A stretch of 59,765 bases of DNA, counting the filler, from Bipalium vagum (taxonomy: Eukaryota), in NCBI GenBank assembly GCA_037834085.1. It is 3 parts of 3 records of this genome, joined end to end, with 100 filler letters (N's around TTAATTAATTAA, not from the genome) between each part and the next. Parts side by side here need not be neighbours in the genome. Positions count along the whole stretch, not along the records: positions 23,974 to 41,380 come from JBBMKC010066728.1; 2 more parts are not named here. One strand, written 5' to 3'. This document shows positions 28,601 to 54,500 of the stretch, piece by piece (the first letter of the stretch is position 1; each line of letters starts with the position of its first letter). The position numbers were made by a program, and so were the translations under genes. Below the pieces are notes generated by a model, which saw only the letters and a list, made by a program, of their open reading frames with translations, was not told the origin of the DNA and made no database searches.

Positions 28601-28798
28601 AATATTTTAATCAATTTCGAAATAGGAAAGTGACTTTAGGCCACTTTTAATAACTATTTAAAAAATTTATCAAAAGAAACATGCTAATGTGATACTTATT
28701 CTGTTTAAATATGTTACTATTTCCTCAATTGAAATACGTAACTTTAGCTCAAAATTTTTCTAACTTCTCACTTCGTTACTGTTAGTTGAAAATTATTC

Positions 28799-28836
28799 GG
28801 AGATACCGGGATTCGAACCCGGGACCTTCACATGCG
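28799..28836 (-). pseudogene. 3' half of a tRNA-Ala(CGC) gene or tRNA-Ala-derived element
   Basis: The minus strand reads CGC AT GTGA AGGT C CCGGG TTCGAAT CCCGG TATCTCC: a perfect T arm and B box, acceptor 3' strand with U70 (Ala G3:U70), no CCA, and TTTT shortly downstream. The 5' half is absent. Confidence 0.7.
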
Positions 28837-28869
28837 CATGGACTGCTCTGCTACATGCTTCTGACCATA

Positions 28870-29433
28870 TCAGTTTGCGCTCGTACTTGCGCACAGTGCC
28901 TCTAAGGCTCTGGCCTTCTTCGAATAATTGAAGATGAATCTCCTGTAATAGTTACAAATACTCAGGAAACTCCTGAGGTTCTTCACACATTTTGGTCTTT
29001 CGAATTTTTGGATTGCTTCTATTTTTTCTGGATCTGCTCTGATTCCTTTCTTATCTATGATGTGCCTCAGAAATTTCACTTCCGATCGTAACAAGTGACA
29101 GTTTTCTGGATTTATTCGTAATTCAGCGTTTTGCACTTTCTCCAAAACCGCGCTCAGTATTTCGTAATGTTGCTCCTCATCCTTTGAGAATATCAATATA
29201 TCGTCCATGTAAACCATAGTTCTTTTTAAGCATCTTAAAACATTTGCTATCAGTTCCTGGAAGGTCCCTGGTGCCGCTGCTATATCAAAGGGCACCCTCT
29301 TAAAACAAAATTGTCCATTTTTTGTGGAGAATGCTGTTTTCTCCAGAGAGTCTGGATGTAGTGGCACTTGATAATAGGCATTTCCGAGATCAATGGTACT
29401 CATGTATTCAGTTCTGTATAAGTTGTCTAGCAT
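28870..29433 (-). pseudogene. Gypsy reverse transcriptase (core and thumb)
   Basis: KTAFST, YMDD and LRSFLSICNYYRRFI; continues by frameshift as KLIWSEACSRAV to about 28840. Confidence 0.9.
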
Positions 29434-29436
29434 CTC

Positions 29437-30160
29437 TCACACATTCGGCATCGGGAATGCTTGACTCTCCGTTATGGCATTTAATTTCTTGAAATCTAAA
29501 CATAATCTTACGTCTTTCCTTTCCTTCTTCCATACGCATATTAGCGGTGAATTCCATGGTAAGTTGCACTTTCTGATGATGAAGTTATCGAATAAATTTT
29601 TTATTGCTTCGTCAATCCTTTTCTCCAAATGGATAGGCTGTCTCCATGGTTTGACGTTTATTGGTTCTCCTTTGGCGATTATTTTATGCTCTGCCATTTT
29701 TGTTTTACCGATATCCCAATTATCTGCCATGAATAATCTTTTATTTGTGTTTATGATTTGTTCCAAAATTTTGTTGGGTGTCGGAAATAGAATTTTTAGT
29801 GCTCTCTGTAATTGTTCTTCATCGCTTGTTTTCCCGAATTTCGCTTCTATGTTGCATAATTGTTCATTATATCTGTCTTTCATCGCTTTTCTTTTTAGAG
29901 CAAACCCGAACTGTCTTTGTAATGCAATCCCACCAATCAATCCTGACTGTATCTCTTCTACTACTATAAATCTGACTTTGTATCGTGTGTTCCATATACA
30001 TACGTCCACGTTTATTACACTCATCGTTTCAAGTGGACTATTGTTAGCACATTTCAGATTTTCTTCGCCATCTCTTAATTCAATGACCTTTAATCCTTCG
30101 AAAATCTTCCAGCTCATCACATTGATACAGCCCCTGTATCTAATAAATATTCGAATTGGT
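29437..30160 (-). pseudogene. Gypsy aspartic protease and RT N-terminus
   Basis: YLLDTGA (frameshifted), LIGGI, MADNWDIGKT..EHKI, PINVKPWRQP and RLCLDFKKLN. Confidence 0.85.
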
Positions 30161-30414
30161 ATCCTTAAATATGAACTGCTACACTCGGTCTGCCTTTCAT
30201 CTTATCATAGTTGATCTGTTGTCCTCTTTCTTCTATTAGCAGTATCTCGTTTCCTTGTTCTGTGCTGCTCGTTCTGTCTGCATCAATATTCAATTCCTCC
30301 ATTTTTATAAATCTGTACACTTTTTCCATTGCATCATCAATTTTGTATATCTATTTTGTATATTTATTAAATTACTTCTATTATACATATAAATATCGCG
30401 ATAGTTGACTTCAT

Positions 30415-31448
30415 CTAGTTCATTACTTCGATCAACTCGACTTCGTGTAAAGCGTTCACGTTTGAGTGTTCTTCTCTAAATGTGTCTGATTCTCTATCGT
30501 AACAGTACAATTTATCTCCTCTCCAAATGAAGTCCATATCCTCGTCTTCTGATATTCCATTAACGTACTTTGTGTCTGGCTTTTGCTTATTTTCTCCAAT
30601 GTTGCGCCGCCAAGTTTGATAAAAGTTTGAATTTCTTACCGTGTATGTTGCTCGTCGTCCTGCGTATTTCTCCTTTCCGTTGTAAGAAAATTTCTCAAGA
30701 TTTATGTAGCATTCTTCCACTTGATGTCCGTTTCTGTGGCATCTCGAGCATTTGGTTTTATTGCAGTCTTTCCTTAAGTGGTGTTCCGAACCGCAGGTAA
30801 AGCATTGTCTTCTATTTTCTGGGCATTGTCTACTGATATGTCCAATCTTATTGCATATCCAGCATACTATTTCTCTCGGGTCATTATTTGCTCTTTCCTG
30901 TCTTCTTTTCTCTGGTGTTGCTCGTAAAACATAACTCGTAAAACTTCTTACTGTATTTACGTTTTCTACCTTTGTCTCTTCTTCCTGGATGTCTTCCTAT
31001 TCTTTTATAATCACGAACATATAATTTATCTTTTTAATCTTTTCACTTTTGATTTTCTGCTTCACTTTTTTGTCTTCGCAACTATTCATCATTAGATCCT
31101 TCATTAATTGTTCTTTTTCCCATTTGTGCACCAGTAATTTTTCTTCTAGTTCCTCTTTTATTTTTGTAGACATTGATGTGATCTCCTTTCCGTCGGTAAC
31201 TCAGAGCCTCTTCAATGTCCTTCATCATCGACATTGGTTTATGGAAGACCTTTCAAAGTCTGTCATCGAAACCAAGAGAGCTGTCTTCATTTTCGTATAC
31301 ATCTCTGATTTCTTTGTCTAAAAGGCTACTGTGAGGATGCTTCGCATATTCTTCTTCACTCCAGCACCATCAAAGTATCTGGTTCATCTTTTGATAAATT
31401 TTTCAACATCTTCTCCTTTTTTGAAGATCCAAAGGTGAATTGCTTCAT
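30415..31448 (-). pseudogene. Gypsy gag with three zinc knuckles
   Basis: CWICNKIGHISRQC, CFTCGSEHHLRKDC and CSRCHRNGHQVEEC in one frame (about 30710-30866); frameshifts upstream. Confidence 0.8.
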
Positions 31449-32079
31449 GCAGTAGGTCCAAAGAGTTGTTTTTATTGATTAAAACTATTACCAAAATCTA
31501 TACTCGATTGAATCAAAATAATCACAATAAAATCTTTATCTCGGTTCGCAACGAAAGTGAATCAAAACAATCAGGAAAAAAACAGGAAAACTGTATTAAA
31601 ATTATAACAATTTACAATAACACAATCAACAATCACAGGAAATCACAATACATGTCTGAGATTCACAACAATTCAACTAAAACACTAAAGAAGTAATCAA
31701 ATATCACTTGAATCAAATATCTGAACGTCAATCAAATGTTAATAAAATAAGTTAAAATGTTAAACTAATAATTAAATTAAAACAAAAACAAAAATACGCA
31801 ATAAAGAATTCTCTCACCATGAGCGGCAGTGGGTCCCCGAGTCATCCTGTAGGTCCTGTTCGGTCTCCTAGGAATCCCCAAAGTCTATGAACCTCACTGT
31901 TAAATCCTGTTTCAAAGATGTCATAACAATAAGAATATTTACTAAAATGTCTTCGGACTGATGAACGTATATCTGAAACAAAAAAATCTTCATATCCACA
32001 CAGCTTCCAAAAAAAATATAATCTTCTTCCAACTGATTTCTCAGAATAAATAAACACAATTTTTTCTGCTCAATTATAA

Positions 32080-32930
32080 TCTCAAAGACAGGGAACCTCA
32101 GGTCAACCAAAAAAAATTAAAGATGCAGAATTAGAAGACCTATTAGCCCAGGATAATATGCAAACCCCAAAACAACTTGCTACCAACTTGATATGTCTCA
32201 ACACGCCATTTCCAATCAACTACACGGTATGGGAAAGATTCAATTCGAAGGGAATTGAATGAAATGAGTATGGAAAAACGAAAAAAACATGAAAATTTAA
32301 AGGAAAGATACCGAAAAAAGTCGTTTCTGCATTGTATTGCTACAAACGATAAAAAATGGATTTATTTTTATAATCAAAAACGCAAGAAATCATGGGCTGA
32401 TCTAGGCCAACTATTAATTTCGACTACCAAGAAAAATATTCAATATACACAGAAGGCTTTGTTGTGTATCTGATGGGAACAGAAAGATTTCGTCTTCTAT
32501 GAGTTATTAAATAATGGTGAAACGGTCAACGCCAATTGTTATGAACAACAATTGATTCAAATGAACATGGCATTGAAGCAGAAATGACCAGAATGTGACA
32601 AGAGGCATGGAAAAATTATTCTGTTAAATGACAGTGCTCGACAAAATGTAGCCAATTCAGTCAAGGATACGTATAAAGAAATTGGATGGGAAGTCCTACC
32701 TCATCCGCCATATTCACTAGACATACATGTAGCACCATCTGATTTCCATTTGTTCAGCTCATTGGAAAATGGACTATCAGAACGGCACTTTTGCAAATAT
32801 GACGAAATCATATTTTGGCTCGATGAATGGATTTTGTCTAAAGAAGAAAATTTCTTTTACAATGTCATTCACAAGTTACCAGAAAATTGAACCAATATTA
32901 CAGCTAAAGATGGGAAATATGTATAATATA
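32080..32930 (+). mobile_element. Mariner (mauritiana/Mos1-like) transposase pseudogene
   Basis: GQPKKIKDAELEDLLAQD, MGKIQ, KKSFLHCIATNDKKWIYFYNQKRKKSW, YELLNNGETVNANCYEQQL and LDWEVLPHPPYS...APSDFHLF. Confidence 0.9.
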
Positions 32931-34085
32931 ATTATTATTTGTCGTGTCTTTAAAATAAATGCATTTTGTTTTTTAAAAAATTCTTTAGAATTAACGGCTG
33001 CACAAATTCTTAAGTATTTTTTTATGAAACAGTCTTCTTTTACACAAAATTATAAAATGCCAGAATTCAAAAATTAAAAATTATCGAAACATTGAAAATA
33101 AAAATTAAAAAAAATATTCATTGAATAAAAATATTAAAAAATGAAAACGAAGACAAAGCGAAAACTCCGTTGCTACCAAAACGGTCAGTCAATCTTTTCA
33201 ATAGACCAAATGAGGACAAACGTGATAAAATTCCAAGTTATAATGGATTTAATAAGAACGTTCTGATTAATTCTGATTCTGTGACAGAGCCCGGATTTAG
33301 AAGAACAAGAAAATCCTATTTGCAGAACAATTGAAATCGTCTTCTTTGTTATTTCGTACTGTGATTAACGATTTGACTGAAATTTAATATTCAGAAAATA
33401 TTATTGGAAATTTATCACATAGGAAACTGACATTGCGATGTGAAAAGAGAAACCTGAACGAACCACTTGATTAAAACAAAAATCAATACATAAAAATTTG
33501 TCAAAAAGGAAAGTTAGCAAAATACATTTTCGGATTTTTAATTAAATTTTATGTTTAAACGTATTTATTTTATTAACGGTGGAGCAAATAAGAAACAGTC
33601 CACGTTCCAATAATGATTTCGTTATTGAGCTACATGAGAAGGTGCATGAGAAGGGTGCTACCACGCATAATTCAAAATGTTCCTCGTCGATGGATGGCTT
33701 TCACATTTTGTAACAGCTCAATGAAACGATGAAAATTAATATTTTCGTCTTATTCGACCATTTGAAAATATGTTAATAGCAACAGTTCATTGGTACACTA
33801 CCTATAATGCTTTTTCGTCTTTGTTTGGGTTTATTTTCACCAGGATTCACTCACACGTAAGGCAGCTGAGCATATGTGTCAGATATATTTAAATTAGCCA
33901 CTGATACCCGGTTGATCGTATTATTTATTCGCATTGATCTCTTCCGTATGTAGTATTATTAAATGAAAAAAATAAAATACTGTATAGGTTTAAGCATATT
34001 AATTTAAAAATCTCATAAGTCTTTTAATTATTTTTTTGAATTTTTTAAAAATTAATTTTATTTAAATTATTATTTTTCTATTATT

Positions 34086-48590: not shown

Positions 48591-51500
48591 TCATTGAATG
48601 GATACTAAATCATTAAATGAAACCTCATTGTGATTCTCTTCATCAGTACTGGTACTCAAATTGAATTTAGAGGAATATTCAACTGAAGACGAAGTTGGAG
48701 ATTCCGAGGAATGACAATGATTTCTATACAATGGTTTGGACGATAACAACAGTCGCTCCTCATCACCAGTGCTGCTACTGCTCAGATAACTGCTTGACGA
48801 ATTGTTGTTGGAGTTGATTAAATCTTGAGCCTCCAATAATCGAACAATTTCCAAAATCGATTCCTCTCCAGACTTTCCCATGCCGCTCGTCAAAGATAGA
48901 ATACTGACAAATTTCGCTAGAACAAATGCCAATAATCGGAATCTTCCCGATGGTAAATGTTTCCGAATCCTTTCCATGAACCGACCACTACCTTTGATAA
49001 GGCATCCCAGTAGCAAAGCTGAAACCATAACGATATAATTATATATATTTGCATTTCACCAAATAGTTCAAACACTACTAATATCTCTAAATAGAGAACA
49101 TTTTTTGAACAAATCTTGATTTTCATTAAATAGATAAAATACACAATATTTAATTATTTAATCAATAGAAATAATAATAATTTAATTAATTAATAAAACT
49201 TAAAATAGAAATTGGTTATTATCGACTTACCTGTGTAAGCGGATACTACCGAATCTTGCATATGCTGTCCGGCAGCACTGAGTTTCTTTTGCAGTTCTTC
49301 TTCCTCTTCTTTGCTGTTGATTAAGAACTCCACGTCTGCACCTTCATCACTACTTGCATCGTCTTCAGACTCACTGAACTCCATTCCATAAATATTCTTT
49401 TCCTTACTAATTTTAGCTATCAAATTAAAAAATGAAATCAATATAAAATCAATATTGTATTGTATTTTACTCGTTTTATTTCTTCTCATTAAACTTTTGT
49501 CGGCAACCAATCTCCATTTCGGATCGTTTCCGGTTTCATCAATTTCCTCATTGTTACCAACACCTTCAGCCTCACCTTCAATCAAAACATTGTTTTTAGC
49601 TCGATCATCGTGCCTCAAAAACAACTGAAAGCAAATAAAAATTAATTTCAATTAGCATTCAATAACTTTAACTTAAAACAATTAATATAAACTAAAAATT
49701 CAAAAAAATCGTGATATATATTATCAATATCAATTAAATAAAATTTAATAAATAAAAATGTCTAAAATCTATAATTATTAATAAAATATATTTAAAAATT
49801 TCAAACAGAATTTATTATTATCTCTGCTATTATTTAATAATTATTATTAATATCATTAGATATAATGATTTTTCTTCATATCATTAATAAAAATATAATT
49901 ATTTTAGATAGCTTTTAATCGATAGCTTTTAAATAAACAAAGAAAAGAAATATCCAGGAATTCGAAATATAAAACCAAAAAAAAATGAAATCTATCAATA
50001 ATAAATTTTTCTGTAAACAAAATTTATCATATATTTACTCAAGAGTAAAAAATGATTTTTTAAATAGAAAATTTTCCCCATTTTATAAAACTGAAATATA
50101 AATACTGGAAAGAATAGTCAAAAATTTTAATAGATTTAAATATATTTCAGTTAACGTAGTACAGAGAGAAATATGAACTTATTTTTTTAATGCACACACG
50201 CACATATCCACACAGACAAACAAATACACACACTACACTGAAAATGTTGAAGAGTTGATTTTAAACATATCAGTTCCGTTTTATCTCTCTATCACTTTCT
50301 GTCTTTATACTATGCTTTATCCCTGATTCTCTGTGTCAGTGCGTCTATCACAGAAAATCATTGGACCACACAACAGAACTCTAAAAATTGGCAACCAGTG
50401 CCATTCTAAAATGATCACTGTATGCGATATAGAAACACACACAAATACGAAGGCACACCCGCTCAAATAATTTCAATTCACAATTCAATTATATCTCTCT
50501 CTCTTTCTCTGTGTCTCTATCTCTTATAGACACATTAATTTGCAATTATTGATTTTTTATTTATTTTCTAGTCTTGTAAGTTTAAAACTAATATATGTAT
50601 TTTTGAATGTTCGCTCGTGTGTGTGTGTGTGTGTGTATCAATGTTATGTGAAACACTGAAAATTAAATCAAACGTAATTTTAAATTTGTCCTTTGAAAAA
50701 AACTTACCTTGACAAGAGCTTCCAAAACATTTATTTTTACATCGGAAGATTCACAGTCGATATTCAACATGTTACCAGAATCTTCATCATCTTCATCATC
50801 ATCTTCCAAATCCATATCCTCTTCATCTATTTCATCATCAAATGAAAAACCCATAGATTTGCTTTCTTTTACATTTACAGCGTCATCGAGGTCAGTCGAT
50901 ATTTGACCACTTTTTCCCAGACATGCGACTCGCTTACGAGAAATTGAAACGTGGCCCATTCTTAATCGATTTTCTGAGCAATGCTCTGCCAGGTTGATGA
51001 GCAAAGCCAAAGCCAGTACGGAAAGATCAAATCGTTTACCGCTACTCATAAATCGCGGAAGATGCAACAAACATGAGAAAATCAATTTCAACAATCCAGT
51101 ACAATTGCCTAATTGATTACTTGTCCACTCTATTAACAAGAGATAGATAAAAAGATGTTTCAAATGAATAAAACATAGATTTCTTAAAGTTTATAGATTT
51201 TCATTTTAAAAATATTTCCAAAATTAAATTAAAAAAGGAAAAAATATTAATTTGAATACCATATATATATAACTGAAAAATATTGTTTTTAATTCAATCA
51301 ATAACCAATAATCTTTCCTTAAATTATTGAAAATTTTTTTGAAATTCTGACTTCGTTTAAATGATTCCTCATCTAAGCAGTTAGACAGAGAGAGATTCTT
51401 TGTTATGGCAAGAAAATTCCAGTGAAAAGAAGAAAAAGCAACAAAAATCATATCCCGAGATGCAAATAACATTTTATCTCTACAGTTTTGTAAAGTATAT

Positions 51501-54500
51501 ATTTTTTTGTCAGATAAGCTCAAAAAAATTATTAAATTAATAAAATAAAAATAAATAAAAGATCATTCAGAATCAATTATTAAAATAATAATAATAATTT
51601 TAACATAGTTTGAGAAAAATAAATAATTTTCTCAAAGAAAATTTTAATATTTCAATTGTCATTGTTGATCGCTTTGAATAGAAATTAAATTAGTAATAAT
51701 CTATATTTTATTTTCACGGTAAAAATCGATTAAATTAAAGATTTCTCATAAGTCGATAATTGAGAAGAATTGTTGAATGTACTAATCAATATATTGAAAA
51801 ATCTCTTTCCAATGAAAGTTATTAATAAAAAATAATTCTCAATTTATTCCAAATACATTTATATACATTTGAAAAAATGTATATATAAATTAATAATTAT
51901 TTTCATATTTTGAGTTACCCACATTAAAAAAAATAAAACATGTGTTTAACTGACCATCAATGAATGATTAATGTTCAAATTAATATCTTATTGATTTCAA
52001 CATGAATTTAAATAAATTTTTTTTGAAAGTGATTTGAATATACGAATATTAATAATTTTATATTAAATAAAAATTATTGTTTTTAAAAAAAAATTATGTA
52101 AGTGAAAATTAATAATATAATCATAATTATTATTATTTAATTATCATAATTATGAAATGCTTTTTGTATTGAATAAATGTTGATAATGTCAAATATTTAT
52201 TATAAAAAAATTGAAATTATTTATAAAAAAATCAATACTAGACAATAAGGGTAAAAAAAAGACACTTGTTTCATAATCGAATTTTTCCAGTTCCACGCTT
52301 CTTAATGTCTAGTTGACATTTTCGAAATCGAAAGTAAACATCAACAATGTTATCGATTGACTATTTCACCACACATCAAAAAGCTTTTGAGGAAAATATT
52401 GAAAATTTACCGATATGATATGTTTTCAAAATTCGTTTATTAACAAAACCAATAGCCTGATTAATTGATTAAATAGTAATTATTTAAAAATCTTTTATTT
52501 ACTTTGTTAAATGTTTACATGCAAAATAATATTAATATTAATTATTATTATTATGATTATTATTGACTAGGTGCAATACAATATTCAAAAAGACTTGAAT
52601 ATGAAAAGTGAATCGATAATTGTTAGAAATTGCTATTTTATTATGTAAATAAATTTATATTGGTTTGCACATGGTCTGTGTGTATGTGTGTCCCTTAGTC
52701 GTGTACGTTACAAAAATAGTTAGTGTGTGGTTATCATGGGAACTGGCATGAATACAAAACACAAATCCGATTTCTCATGTTTGAATTTTTTATTGATTTT
52801 TCTTAGTTCCATGTTCAATATTTTAATTTTATAATAACATTAATATTAATAATTATAAACAAAAAAATATATTCACCGTTGTCGTGAGAAATATTTGCCA
52901 GCAACCCCAGAATGGCTAAAAGACAGGCTTGGATTAGAGTTTTTTCTTGACTACCTTGAATTTGATATGAAAGATTTGCAGCGCAAAGTTTTAGACATCT
53001 CCAAAAATGATTTATTAAGATTGTATCATTATAATCAATCAGGTACGATTGATTATCGCGATTCTGAAAAGTCATCTGGAAAAAGTTTTGAAATAAAGTT
53101 CCGTTGACAAAAAACAAAATGTGTGCAAAACAAACGTACATTTTCAAGAAATCGCATATAATTAAATAATCGATACAACCGATCCATTACAAATTCGTCG
53201 AGATTCTGTGGTCCGAGGTCTTCACCAAGATAGTCTATGGAAGCCGTAACCTGCTCGCAAATCAAATCCAATCCACGTAGCTTACGCATTTGATTTTTGA
53301 ACCAATCAACACATTTCCTGGATGATAATTGCAGAAGACATTCCACCACCAAATCTTCCGTCTGAATCAAAGCAAAAAAATCAAAACCAACGTAACCAAT
53401 ATTTACAATAGCTCTAAAAATATCACTATCTTTCTCATTTTTGCATAAAAATCGTTTCATAAAAGAAACGTGAGATTTACTAAGTGTTATTGATTATTTT
53501 CAATCGCAACGATTTTAAGTTTTTTAAAATTCGTTTTATGGTCATTGAATAAGTTACAATAAGTATTAATATAGAAAGAATTTGAAATTTAATAAAGAAC
53601 TCATAAATTTATTTTTTTTATTTGGTGAATATAAATTGATTTCATTTAAAAATTTATAACAATAAAAAGATCAAATACTTTAAAAACAATTGGAATGTAA
53701 ACTTCGTTATATCTATGGATTTGATGCAATTAAAATCAATTTTTCGAATTAAAGAAATATTGAAAGTTTTCTTGAAAGAACATAAAAAACGAAACAGTGA
53801 ATTTTGTTTCCTTTATTGAGATATATTAATAAAAAGAAAATTTCATCTTTTTCTGTGCGTGATAAATGAGAGAGAGAGAAAGAAAGAGGGGAAAGATTGA
53901 TACAGACTGGTAGAAAATGAGATTTTCTTTGAAAATTACTACTGTGAGGTCGTCATGTTCAACGGGACAGTTCTTAATTTTTATCGAAATGAGACATGTA
54001 CAATTTGAGTGAATAATCCATAACTATAATTATTGATGTATCGTTCACTGTTGGAGAACTGTAACAGAAAATGTAAATTGATTTTTCATTATTCACAAAG
54101 GAATCATTCATGTGAATAAATAATTAATAATAACAAGAATTTTAATCAATCACGAGAATTATTAAATATCGATATTAAAATATTTAATCAATCAAATTAA
54201 TTTAGATAAGGATTTTATTATGATTTTTTTAAAAATTAGTTTAAAATCATTCAATAATAATAATAATCAAATAATTAAGCAAAATGCTGAAATTTTTTTT
54301 CTAAATTCTCTAAATCATATCACTAATTTGATATGAAAGAATGCGTGTTTTTTTAAAAAATCACTTCCATTTTCAACTTTTCCTGCAGAATTACGACTAT
54401 AACTTAAGTCATTTGAAGGTAAGCAAATTCCAGTTAGGTATGAAACCACTGTTATGGTATAATTTTAAATAGAATAAATTAGCACCACATTCATTAATCT

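What the first reader, a model, noticed from the sequence alone, without database searches (positions are those of the whole stretch)
31813..32036. Conserved, covarying leader RNA structure and splice donor shared by two diverged Gypsy elements (copy A)
Seen on the element's sense (minus) strand in both this copy and 46921-47083, in the same order: an Inr-like AGTTGGAAGAA; ACAGGA; a ~75-nt rod-like hairpin whose sequence differs while pairing is kept (A: CAGUGAGGUUC/GGACCCACUG and CCUAG/CUACAGG; B: ACUAUGGGUCC/GGACCCAUAGU, UAGGG/CCCUA and CUGAG/CUCAG) with a shared apical ACCGAA; then GGUGAGA (a 5' splice-site consensus), a U-rich spacer and the gag start. In copy A several non-Watson-Crick positions are G-U pairs only on the minus strand. 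ACAGGA recurs three times in A and twice in B. No clean tRNA primer-binding site is evident; the stem's 5' arm only loosely resembles a Gln-type TGGAGGTYC. Inference: a possibly undescribed cis-acting retrotransposon RNA module (packaging or dimerisation signal, priming structure, or splicing switch).
Basis: partly seen in the sequence, partly recalled or inferred. Interest (0 to 1): 0.7.

Follow-up and report, generated by a model that had tools for sequence, protein, structure and literature searches.

The report
Conserved hairpin in flatworm Gypsy LTR
Two diverged end-repeats (LTRs) of an abundant jumping gene in a likely flatworm share a real, pairing-conserved hairpin followed by a splice-donor-like site ahead of a likely poly(A) signal, which likely serves as an RNA handle for the element's own proteins and a guard against premature transcript ending, a familiar kind of retroelement signal in an uncatalogued form.

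Summary
The hairpin is real. B's own predicted fold, laid on a sequence-only alignment, keeps 21 of 25 pairs in A, and 5 of 5 double changes still pair. Contigs of one run show a highly repeated family whose depth peaks on the hairpin. A compensation predicted from one arm appeared at its partner (unphased). The framing needs correcting. B has no gag or pol and is an LTR of about 800 bp. The module lies inside the LTR, 170-220 nt upstream of a likely poly(A) signal and over 230 nt from any primer-binding site. AGTTGGAAGAA is not colinear, the ACAGGA repeats are not shared, and ACCGAA varies. Best reading (0.45): an R-region module whose hairpin likely binds Gag for packaging and whose donor likely recruits U1 to block 5'-LTR polyadenylation, as in foamy viruses. 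The transcription start, splicing and U1 binding are untested; no RNA run was listed. This scan noted a like hairpin-plus-donor on other DNA of this genome (e1-9560333), which gave me the foamy-virus lead.

The parts
31827..31899 (-). Copy A rod hairpin: outer stem 31899-31889/31836-31827 with a 1-nt bulge, middle and inner stems, 2-bp cap and 5-nt loop
31905..31910 (-). ACAGGA just 5' of the stem; the only ACAGGA shared in position with B (47023-47018)
31812..31818 (-). GGTGAGA, 5' splice-site-like (GT at 31817), likely a U1 site; also in B at 46926-46920 and in loose ends of 29 contigs
   Evidence: use as a donor untested
31500..31811 (-). U-rich 3' part of LTR A, homologous to B 46920-46700
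   Evidence: 0 and 2 of 300 shuffles
31592..31597 (-). AATACA, poly(A)-signal-like, colinear with B's hexamer at 46752-46747 and followed by a GT-rich tract
31476..31500 (-). Inferred LTR 3' end and PBS zone of A; no clean PBS; relatives put the LTR end, PBS and gag start at the place matching 31476
30415..31476 (-). Decayed gag with zinc knuckles (frameshifts and stops)
28870..30332 (-). Decayed pol (protease, RT), cut off near the start of RNase H
32024..32034 (-). AGTTGGAAGAA of the finding; not colinear with B's copy, so probably not part of the module
32192..33077 (+). Mariner-like transposase fragment abutting LTR A; likely cuts off its 5' part
   Evidence: read from the ORF text; no Pfam hit
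46937..47013 (-). Copy B rod hairpin; depth peak of the repeat family at about 46956-47000
46920..46926 (-). Copy B donor-like GGTGAGA
46747..46752 (-). Copy B poly(A)-signal position: a one-off hexamer in B; 98% of laid depth differs from B at 46752
46705..47505 (-). Copy B: LTR of about 800 bp without coding sequence; TGTT start inferred at 47505, AACA end at 46705 (alternatives near 46666 and 46636); no target-site duplication found (only the 46636 end was tested)

Best explanation
This is a conserved hairpin plus a splice-donor-like site inside the LTR of an abundant Gypsy-type retrotransposon, likely in the R region, where the hairpin likely serves as the handle that Gag uses to select the RNA and the donor likely binds U1 snRNP to stop the 5' LTR's poly(A) signal from firing. 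Shown: homology of A and B, kept pairing, position upstream of a poly(A)-like hexamer and of the LTR end, adjacency of A to gag, high copy number. Inferred: that transcription starts just upstream of ACAGGA, where subfamilies part, so the module lies in R; that a start at least 270 nt ahead of a poly(A) signal needs active suppression; and that a donor kept inside R is bound rather than routinely spliced within R, since a spliced-out piece of R would be lost from progeny. The 14 related loci with a visible junction start gag at the LTR end, leaving no PBS-to-gag leader to hold a packaging signal. How the 3' LTR escapes suppression is unknown.
For: Pairing: 21 of 25 pairs kept and 5 of 5 double changes ((4/9)^5 = 0.017). 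At pair 47011/46939, 94% of depth (98 contigs) and 79% of depth (6 contigs) differ from B by letters that pair with each other: a third pair type, predicted. In the outer 3' arm 4 of 5 places where a transition leaves G-U on the sense strand vary, against 0 of 4 where it would break the pair (Fisher p 0.04). At 46955 and 46979 the common letter pairs better than B's. Depth peaks at 85,000-135,000 on the core, against at most about 26,000 elsewhere in the LTR and 15-37 for single contigs. Loose ends start at 47029-47036 in 37, 19 and 35 contigs, marking the module's 5' edge. The donor motif stands in A, B and the loose ends of 29 contigs although the linker before it differs. Donor-to-hexamer distance is 220 nt in A and 173 nt in B. 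Precedent: PMC3694450 (abstract, sections 3 and 11 read).
Against: No RNA data: start site, poly(A) site, splicing and U1 binding are untested. Only two full sequences; contig variants are unphased and from one run; 31 of 500 shuffles is not below 0.05. A alone folds weakly (z -1.64; 0.09 for the wider stretch). One pair of B's middle helix is broken in 99.8% of depth (46949), and three single-contig variants at 46941-46943 break pairs. In the high-depth zone only 2 stem transitions from Watson-Crick pairs pass 2%, too few to test. Related Gypsy LTRs (157-440 nt) lack the hairpin (0 hits in 30 loci), so the clade can do without it. Predicted donor accessibility gives no clear switch between shorter and longer 5' contexts. 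Depth is no copy number and GC-rich stretches align more easily.
Confidence: 0.45

Rival explanations
1. The donor is a working splice site, used for a spliced pol or subgenomic RNA or for a short intron in the U-rich tract, and the hairpin gates it.
For: G|GTGAGA consensus; pyrimidine tracts ending in AG follow (B near 46813, A near 31684); pol lies in a separate frame overlapping gag by 55-73 nt in 8 of 9 junction rows of relatives.
Against: None of the joints shown (15 of 79, 10) skips donor to acceptor; splicing within R would delete the piece from progeny; relatives with the same gag-pol layout lack the module.
Confidence: 0.2
2. [quoted passage not shown] GGTGAG may be a relic of the TGTRAG that starts the short LTRs of relatives, whose length matches the stretch from the donor to the LTR end.
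For: All 10 resolved LTR starts in 9 related loci read TGTRAG, and those LTRs are 157-440 nt; the donor-to-end stretch is 220-340 nt; the start site is unmapped.
Against: No polypurine tract precedes the donor in A or B; the family continues about 580 nt upstream of the donor; subfamilies diverge just upstream of ACAGGA, as expected at a U3/R border.
Confidence: 0.2
3. An independent small RNA or ribozyme carried in the LTR (self-cleaving RNA, SL-RNA-like, tRNA-derived).
For: Conserved internal loops and cap; A has ATG directly before the GT, as flatworm SL RNAs do (PMC12582326, passages read); tRNA-bearing LTRs were noted in this genome by earlier agents.
Against: No Rfam match on either copy at E up to 5; no tRNA; B lacks the AUG; no match to one recalled Sm-like motif after either donor; the fold is an unbranched rod.
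Confidence: 0.07
4. It is the U5-IR/PBS stem or a self-priming structure.
For: A lacks the clean PBS that relatives carry at the matching place.
Against: The hairpin is over 230 nt (B) and over 320 nt (A) upstream of the nearest candidate LTR end; pairing of A's PBS-position stretch with five LTR segments is not above shuffles (35-217 of 300); folds around the LTR ends are not above shuffles.
Confidence: 0.04
5. Chance likeness, or a neutral GC-rich inverted repeat.
For: Core identity is only 56 of 116 columns; strict scoring of the core is not significant.
Against: The downstream homology, the 5 of 5 double changes, the predicted third pair type and the G-U bias.
Confidence: 0.04

Closest known systems
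Foamy virus R region (major splice donor upstream of the poly(A) signal; Schrom et al. 2013, PMC3694450; abstract and sections 3 and 11 read)
   Same: A 5' splice site among stem-loops inside the LTR, upstream of the poly(A) signal, in a long R; there U1 binding suppresses 5'-LTR polyadenylation.
   Different: Here the host element is a Gypsy retrotransposon, the donor follows a 75-nt rod, no 5'/3' structural switch was predicted and nothing is tested in RNA. No homology is claimed.
General Metaviridae/retroviral LTR anatomy (Benachenhou et al. 2013, PMC3601003; passages read)
   Same: TGTT...AACA ends, a poly(A) hexamer with a GT-rich tract, and residual conservation in long R regions linked to stem-loops.
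   Different: The word 'splice' does not occur in that paper (0 hits); this rod matches no Rfam family.
Ty1/Ty3 packaging determinants (PMC4974528; 4 passages read)
   Same: Structured 5' RNA elements implicated in selecting and dimerising the genome of LTR retrotransposons.
   Different: The passages say splicing was not detected in Ty1/Ty3 and that R is dispensable for Ty1 retrosome localisation; the Ty1 element is a pseudoknot reaching beyond the 5' UTR.
Unnamed Gypsy clade in metagenome contigs (L020-L046)
   Same: RT 52-70% identical (top 69 of 88 hits); gag start colinear with A.
   Different: Short AT-rich LTRs (157-440 nt), a TGGCGAC-type PBS overlapping the gag ATG in 14 of 30 loci, no hairpin.

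Membership tests
Ty3/Gypsy (Metaviridae), element A | gag with zinc knuckles followed by protease and RT of Gypsy type | tested here: met
   zf-CCHC and RVT_1; nearest proteins carry RT, RNase H and integrase families
Ty3/Gypsy (Metaviridae), element A | Integrase after RNase H, and a second LTR | tested here: inconclusive
   A is cut off at about 28870; no integrase and no 3' LTR in the window
Ty3/Gypsy (Metaviridae), element B | gag/pol adjoining the LTR | tested here: not met
   No hits near B; gag stub not above shuffles
LTR | TG...CA ends with short inverted repeats | tested here: inconclusive
   B: TGTT at 47505 and AACA at 46705 fit the depth breaks; other 3' ends possible; A's 5' end lost
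LTR | Poly(A) hexamer with a downstream GT-rich tract | tested here: met
   Colinear one-off hexamers at 31597 and 46752; laid contigs support the position
LTR | PBS directly after the 5' LTR, or a target-site duplication around a solo LTR | tested here: inconclusive
   No clean PBS in A or B; no duplication within 1 mismatch for the 46636 end, the only end tested
Foamy-type U1/poly(A) control | Donor upstream of the poly(A) signal within the LTR | tested here: met
   220 nt and 173 nt upstream
Foamy-type U1/poly(A) control | Donor lies in R (downstream of the transcription start) | not testable with these tools
   No RNA holder listed
Foamy-type U1/poly(A) control | Different donor exposure in the 5' and 3' LTR contexts; dependence on U1 | tested here: inconclusive
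   Folding with three 5' extents gave no clear switch; U1 dependence needs experiment
U5-IR/PBS stem or self-priming | Stem adjoins or includes the PBS, or the PBS pairs with the RNA 5' end | tested here: not met
   Over 230 nt away; pairing not above shuffles
Rfam ribozymes and structured RNAs | Match to a covariance model | tested here: not met
   2 matches at E up to 5 in the window, neither on A or B
Flatworm SL RNA | AUG before the GU donor, donor in the first hairpin, Sm-like motif | tested here: not met
   AUG only in A; donor outside the rod; no match to one recalled Sm-like motif nearby
tRNA-bearing LTR (Helenus-type; name from earlier notes) | tRNA-derived sequence in the LTR | tested here: not met
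   ARAGORN 0 genes; no Rfam tRNA hit on A or B

The most novel reading that the evidence does not exclude
A flatworm Gypsy lineage lengthened its LTR with a new RNA module and independently arrived at the foamy-virus solution: a U1 site upstream of the poly(A) signal, gated by a covarying hairpin, that lets one sequence be read through at the 5' LTR and end the RNA at the 3' LTR. Its many scattered LTRs would then seed structure-gated U1 sites across the host genome.
Probability: 0.2. Interest if true: 0.6.

Novelty: new member of a known kind. Interest (0 to 1): 0.33.

Why it matters
Cis-acting RNA signals of animal Gypsy elements are poorly mapped. A highly repeated LTR family offers a ready natural alignment for a firm covariation test, and a direct test of whether U1 protection of the 5' poly(A) site is used by retrotransposons. 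The searches listed no paper on such a module in a flatworm or Gypsy LTR (listings only; the library lacks most subscription papers and I saw no supplements or repeat libraries). The kind of signal is familiar, which limits the surprise.

Tried and rejected
No whole genome is held. No RNA holder listed; this says nothing about expression. The motif pattern in viral contigs gave 19 loci, all GC-rich and none with the rod by inspection, so taken as chance. The pol alignment found no relative in viral contigs. A model built from A and B found no third copy in the window (next best E 0.29) and none in 30 related loci. Rfam and ARAGORN were blank for both copies. Self-priming or U5-IR pairing was not above shuffles. 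A gag stub in B was not supported (1 of 33 frame-protein comparisons passed and I did not inspect it). An alternative fold pairing ACAGGA with the 5' arm is possible in B (-34.9 against -36.7 kcal/mol, pair probability 0.03) but not in A, so it is no shared switch. TGGTGAGAG as a PBS was rejected because A-B homology runs 220 nt or more past it and only A has CA before it. An HDV-like topology was checked by eye from recalled features and did not fit. I first read B as a solo LTR ending at 46636; the depth fall from about 24,700 (46736) to 738 (46711) to 80-100 (46679-46692) moved the likely end to about 46705. Reads were laid on B only, so A's subfamily was not profiled. One planarian genome paper could not be read.

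Full report
Setting. The window is AT-rich animal DNA. A PDE1 frame at 37870-39084 has a flatworm as best named hit at 49% and WAPL pieces lie at 48591-53493. A flatworm host is likely, not shown. No whole genome is held.

Element A. Downstream of the finding on the minus strand lie a decayed gag with zinc knuckles and a pol that stops near the start of RNase H. The top 69 of 88 RT hits are 52-70% identical, unnamed Gypsy-type proteins. A pol alignment fetched 30 metagenome loci. In 14 of them an LTR end, a TGGCGAC-type PBS and the gag ATG overlap; the 10 resolved LTRs (9 loci) are 157-440 nt and AT-rich. A's gag is colinear with these from 31458, but A has no clean PBS there. A mariner-like fragment abuts A upstream.

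Copy B. No gag or pol lies near B, and a possible stub was not above shuffles. One run held the stretch. Of its contigs 1927 were laid on 46300-47700. Depth stands far above the 15-37 of single contigs over most of 46705-47505, falls to 59 beyond 47522, and drops from about 24,700 at 46736 to 738 at 46711 and 80-100 at 46679-46692. B is therefore best read as an LTR of about 800 bp with TGTT and AACA ends. The 3' end could also be near 46666 or 46636, and no target-site duplication was found for the one end tested. A and B are homologous over the hairpin (1 of 300 shuffles lenient, 54 of 300 strict) and the U-rich tail (0 and 2 of 300), but not upstream. The finding is thus inside the LTR.

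The hairpin. Both copies fold as one rod: z -3.67 for B, -1.64 for A. B's own structure laid on a sequence-only alignment keeps 21 of 25 lettered pairs in A; two of the four misses come from a 1-nt bulge that the aligner ignored. All 5 double changes pair; 31 of 500 shuffles did as well, and slid partners pair 15-48% against 92%. From, 94% of depth differed from B at 47011; I predicted a matching change at its partner 46939, and (607 contigs laid) showed it in 79% of depth (6 contigs). With A this gives three pair types at one pair, though the two sides are unphased. Of 13 variant rows in stem positions, 9 keep or improve pairing, 3 break it (single contigs of equal depth, probably one misaligned record), and 1 breaks the end pair of the middle helix in 99.8% of depth. 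In the outer 3' arm, transitions that leave G-U on the minus strand were seen at 4 of 5 places and pair-breaking ones at 0 of 4 (p 0.04). This points to selection on the sense strand as a single strand, most simply RNA. Depth peaks on the core (85,000-135,000), and many contigs turn unlike B at 47029-47036, just before ACAGGA.

Motifs. Only the first ACAGGA is shared in position. ACCGAA differs from B at its fifth base in 98% of depth. AGTTGGAAGAA sits 124 nt before ACAGGA in A and 60 nt in B, and B's copy aligns elsewhere in A. The donor-like GGTGAGA stands in A, in B and in the loose ends of 29 contigs, while the linker before it differs; it occurs 3 times in the window. One-off poly(A) hexamers lie colinearly at 31597 and 46752, 220 and 173 nt after the donor, ahead of a GT-rich tract; the laid contigs support that position.

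Mechanism. I infer that transcription starts near ACAGGA, so hairpin, donor and poly(A) signal all lie in R. A poly(A) signal that far from the start would need suppressing at the 5' LTR. A donor inside R cannot be spliced routinely within R without losing that piece from progeny, and none of the joints shown skips donor to acceptor (15 of 79; 10). Because gag starts at the LTR end in this clade, a packaging handle has no leader to sit in, so the rod with its conserved loops likely serves that role. Neither step is tested. Folding gave no clear 5'/3' switch, relatives lack the module, and no RNA holder was listed.

Rivals. True splicing and a U3 location each keep about 0.2. All 10 resolved LTR starts of relatives read TGTRAG, so the donor may descend from an old LTR end, but no polypurine tract precedes it here. 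A priming stem, a ribozyme, SL RNA or tRNA and chance are unlikely.

Literature. Read in part: PMC3694450 (abstract, sections 3 and 11), PMC3601003, PMC4974528, PMC12582326 and PMC11410931 (passages), PMC4558846 (passages, section 19). The listings showed no description of this module. Supplements and repeat libraries were not seen and could hold the family. The names Inr, U1 consensus, Sm-like motif and the HDV features are recalled.

Verdict. A real, likely selected LTR hairpin with an adjoining donor-like site: a new member of a known kind of retroelement signal, with a testable foamy-like mechanism. Interest 0.33.

Noticed in passing
L023, L025, L026, L029, L032, L033, L036, L039, L040 (LTR starts): All 10 resolved LTR starts read TGTRAG, a donor-like GTRAG at position 2, while most 3' ends read back as TGTTAG; possibly a selected 5' splice site right after pol.
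   Followed up: partly
14 of 30 loci L020-L049: The gag ATG is formed by the last base of the LTR and the first two of the PBS; several contigs show pol-LTR-PBS-gag junctions (tandem units or assembly cycles; L029 holds two units).
   Followed up: partly
L022-L035 gag-pol junctions: pol lies in the -1 frame overlapping gag by 55-73 nt in 8 of 9 rows, with no evident slippery run by eye; how pol is made is open.
   Followed up: no
window 28790-28870 (-): A tRNA T-arm-like stretch (28806-28823, weak tmRNA hit) lies where A's pol breaks off; it may be one of the tRNA-bearing LTR relics noted elsewhere in this genome.
   Followed up: no
window 41512-42864 (-): Integrase core plus a PLA2-like frame (both below Pfam cut-off); looks like a Maverick/Polinton-type fragment (label recalled).
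   Followed up: no
window 37870-39084 (+): PDE1 in one open frame of 404 codons; nearest protein 84% identical and unnamed.
   Followed up: partly
window 46636-47505 against 48591-53493 (-): LTR B lies about 1.1 kb downstream of the WAPL-region frames on the same strand and could offer a donor or poly(A) signal to read-through RNA.
   Followed up: no
window 31500-31575 (-): A holds the TTTTGATTCA block twice, about 50 nt apart, where B has one: a possible short duplication near the LTR end.
   Followed up: no
window 47016-47023 and 46927-46934 (-): An 8-nt direct repeat flanks the hairpin in B only; the 5' copy can form an alternative stem 1.8 kcal/mol above the best fold.
   Followed up: yes
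window 45017-46384: Tc1-like and mariner transposase fragments lie just beyond B's 3' end.
   Followed up: no
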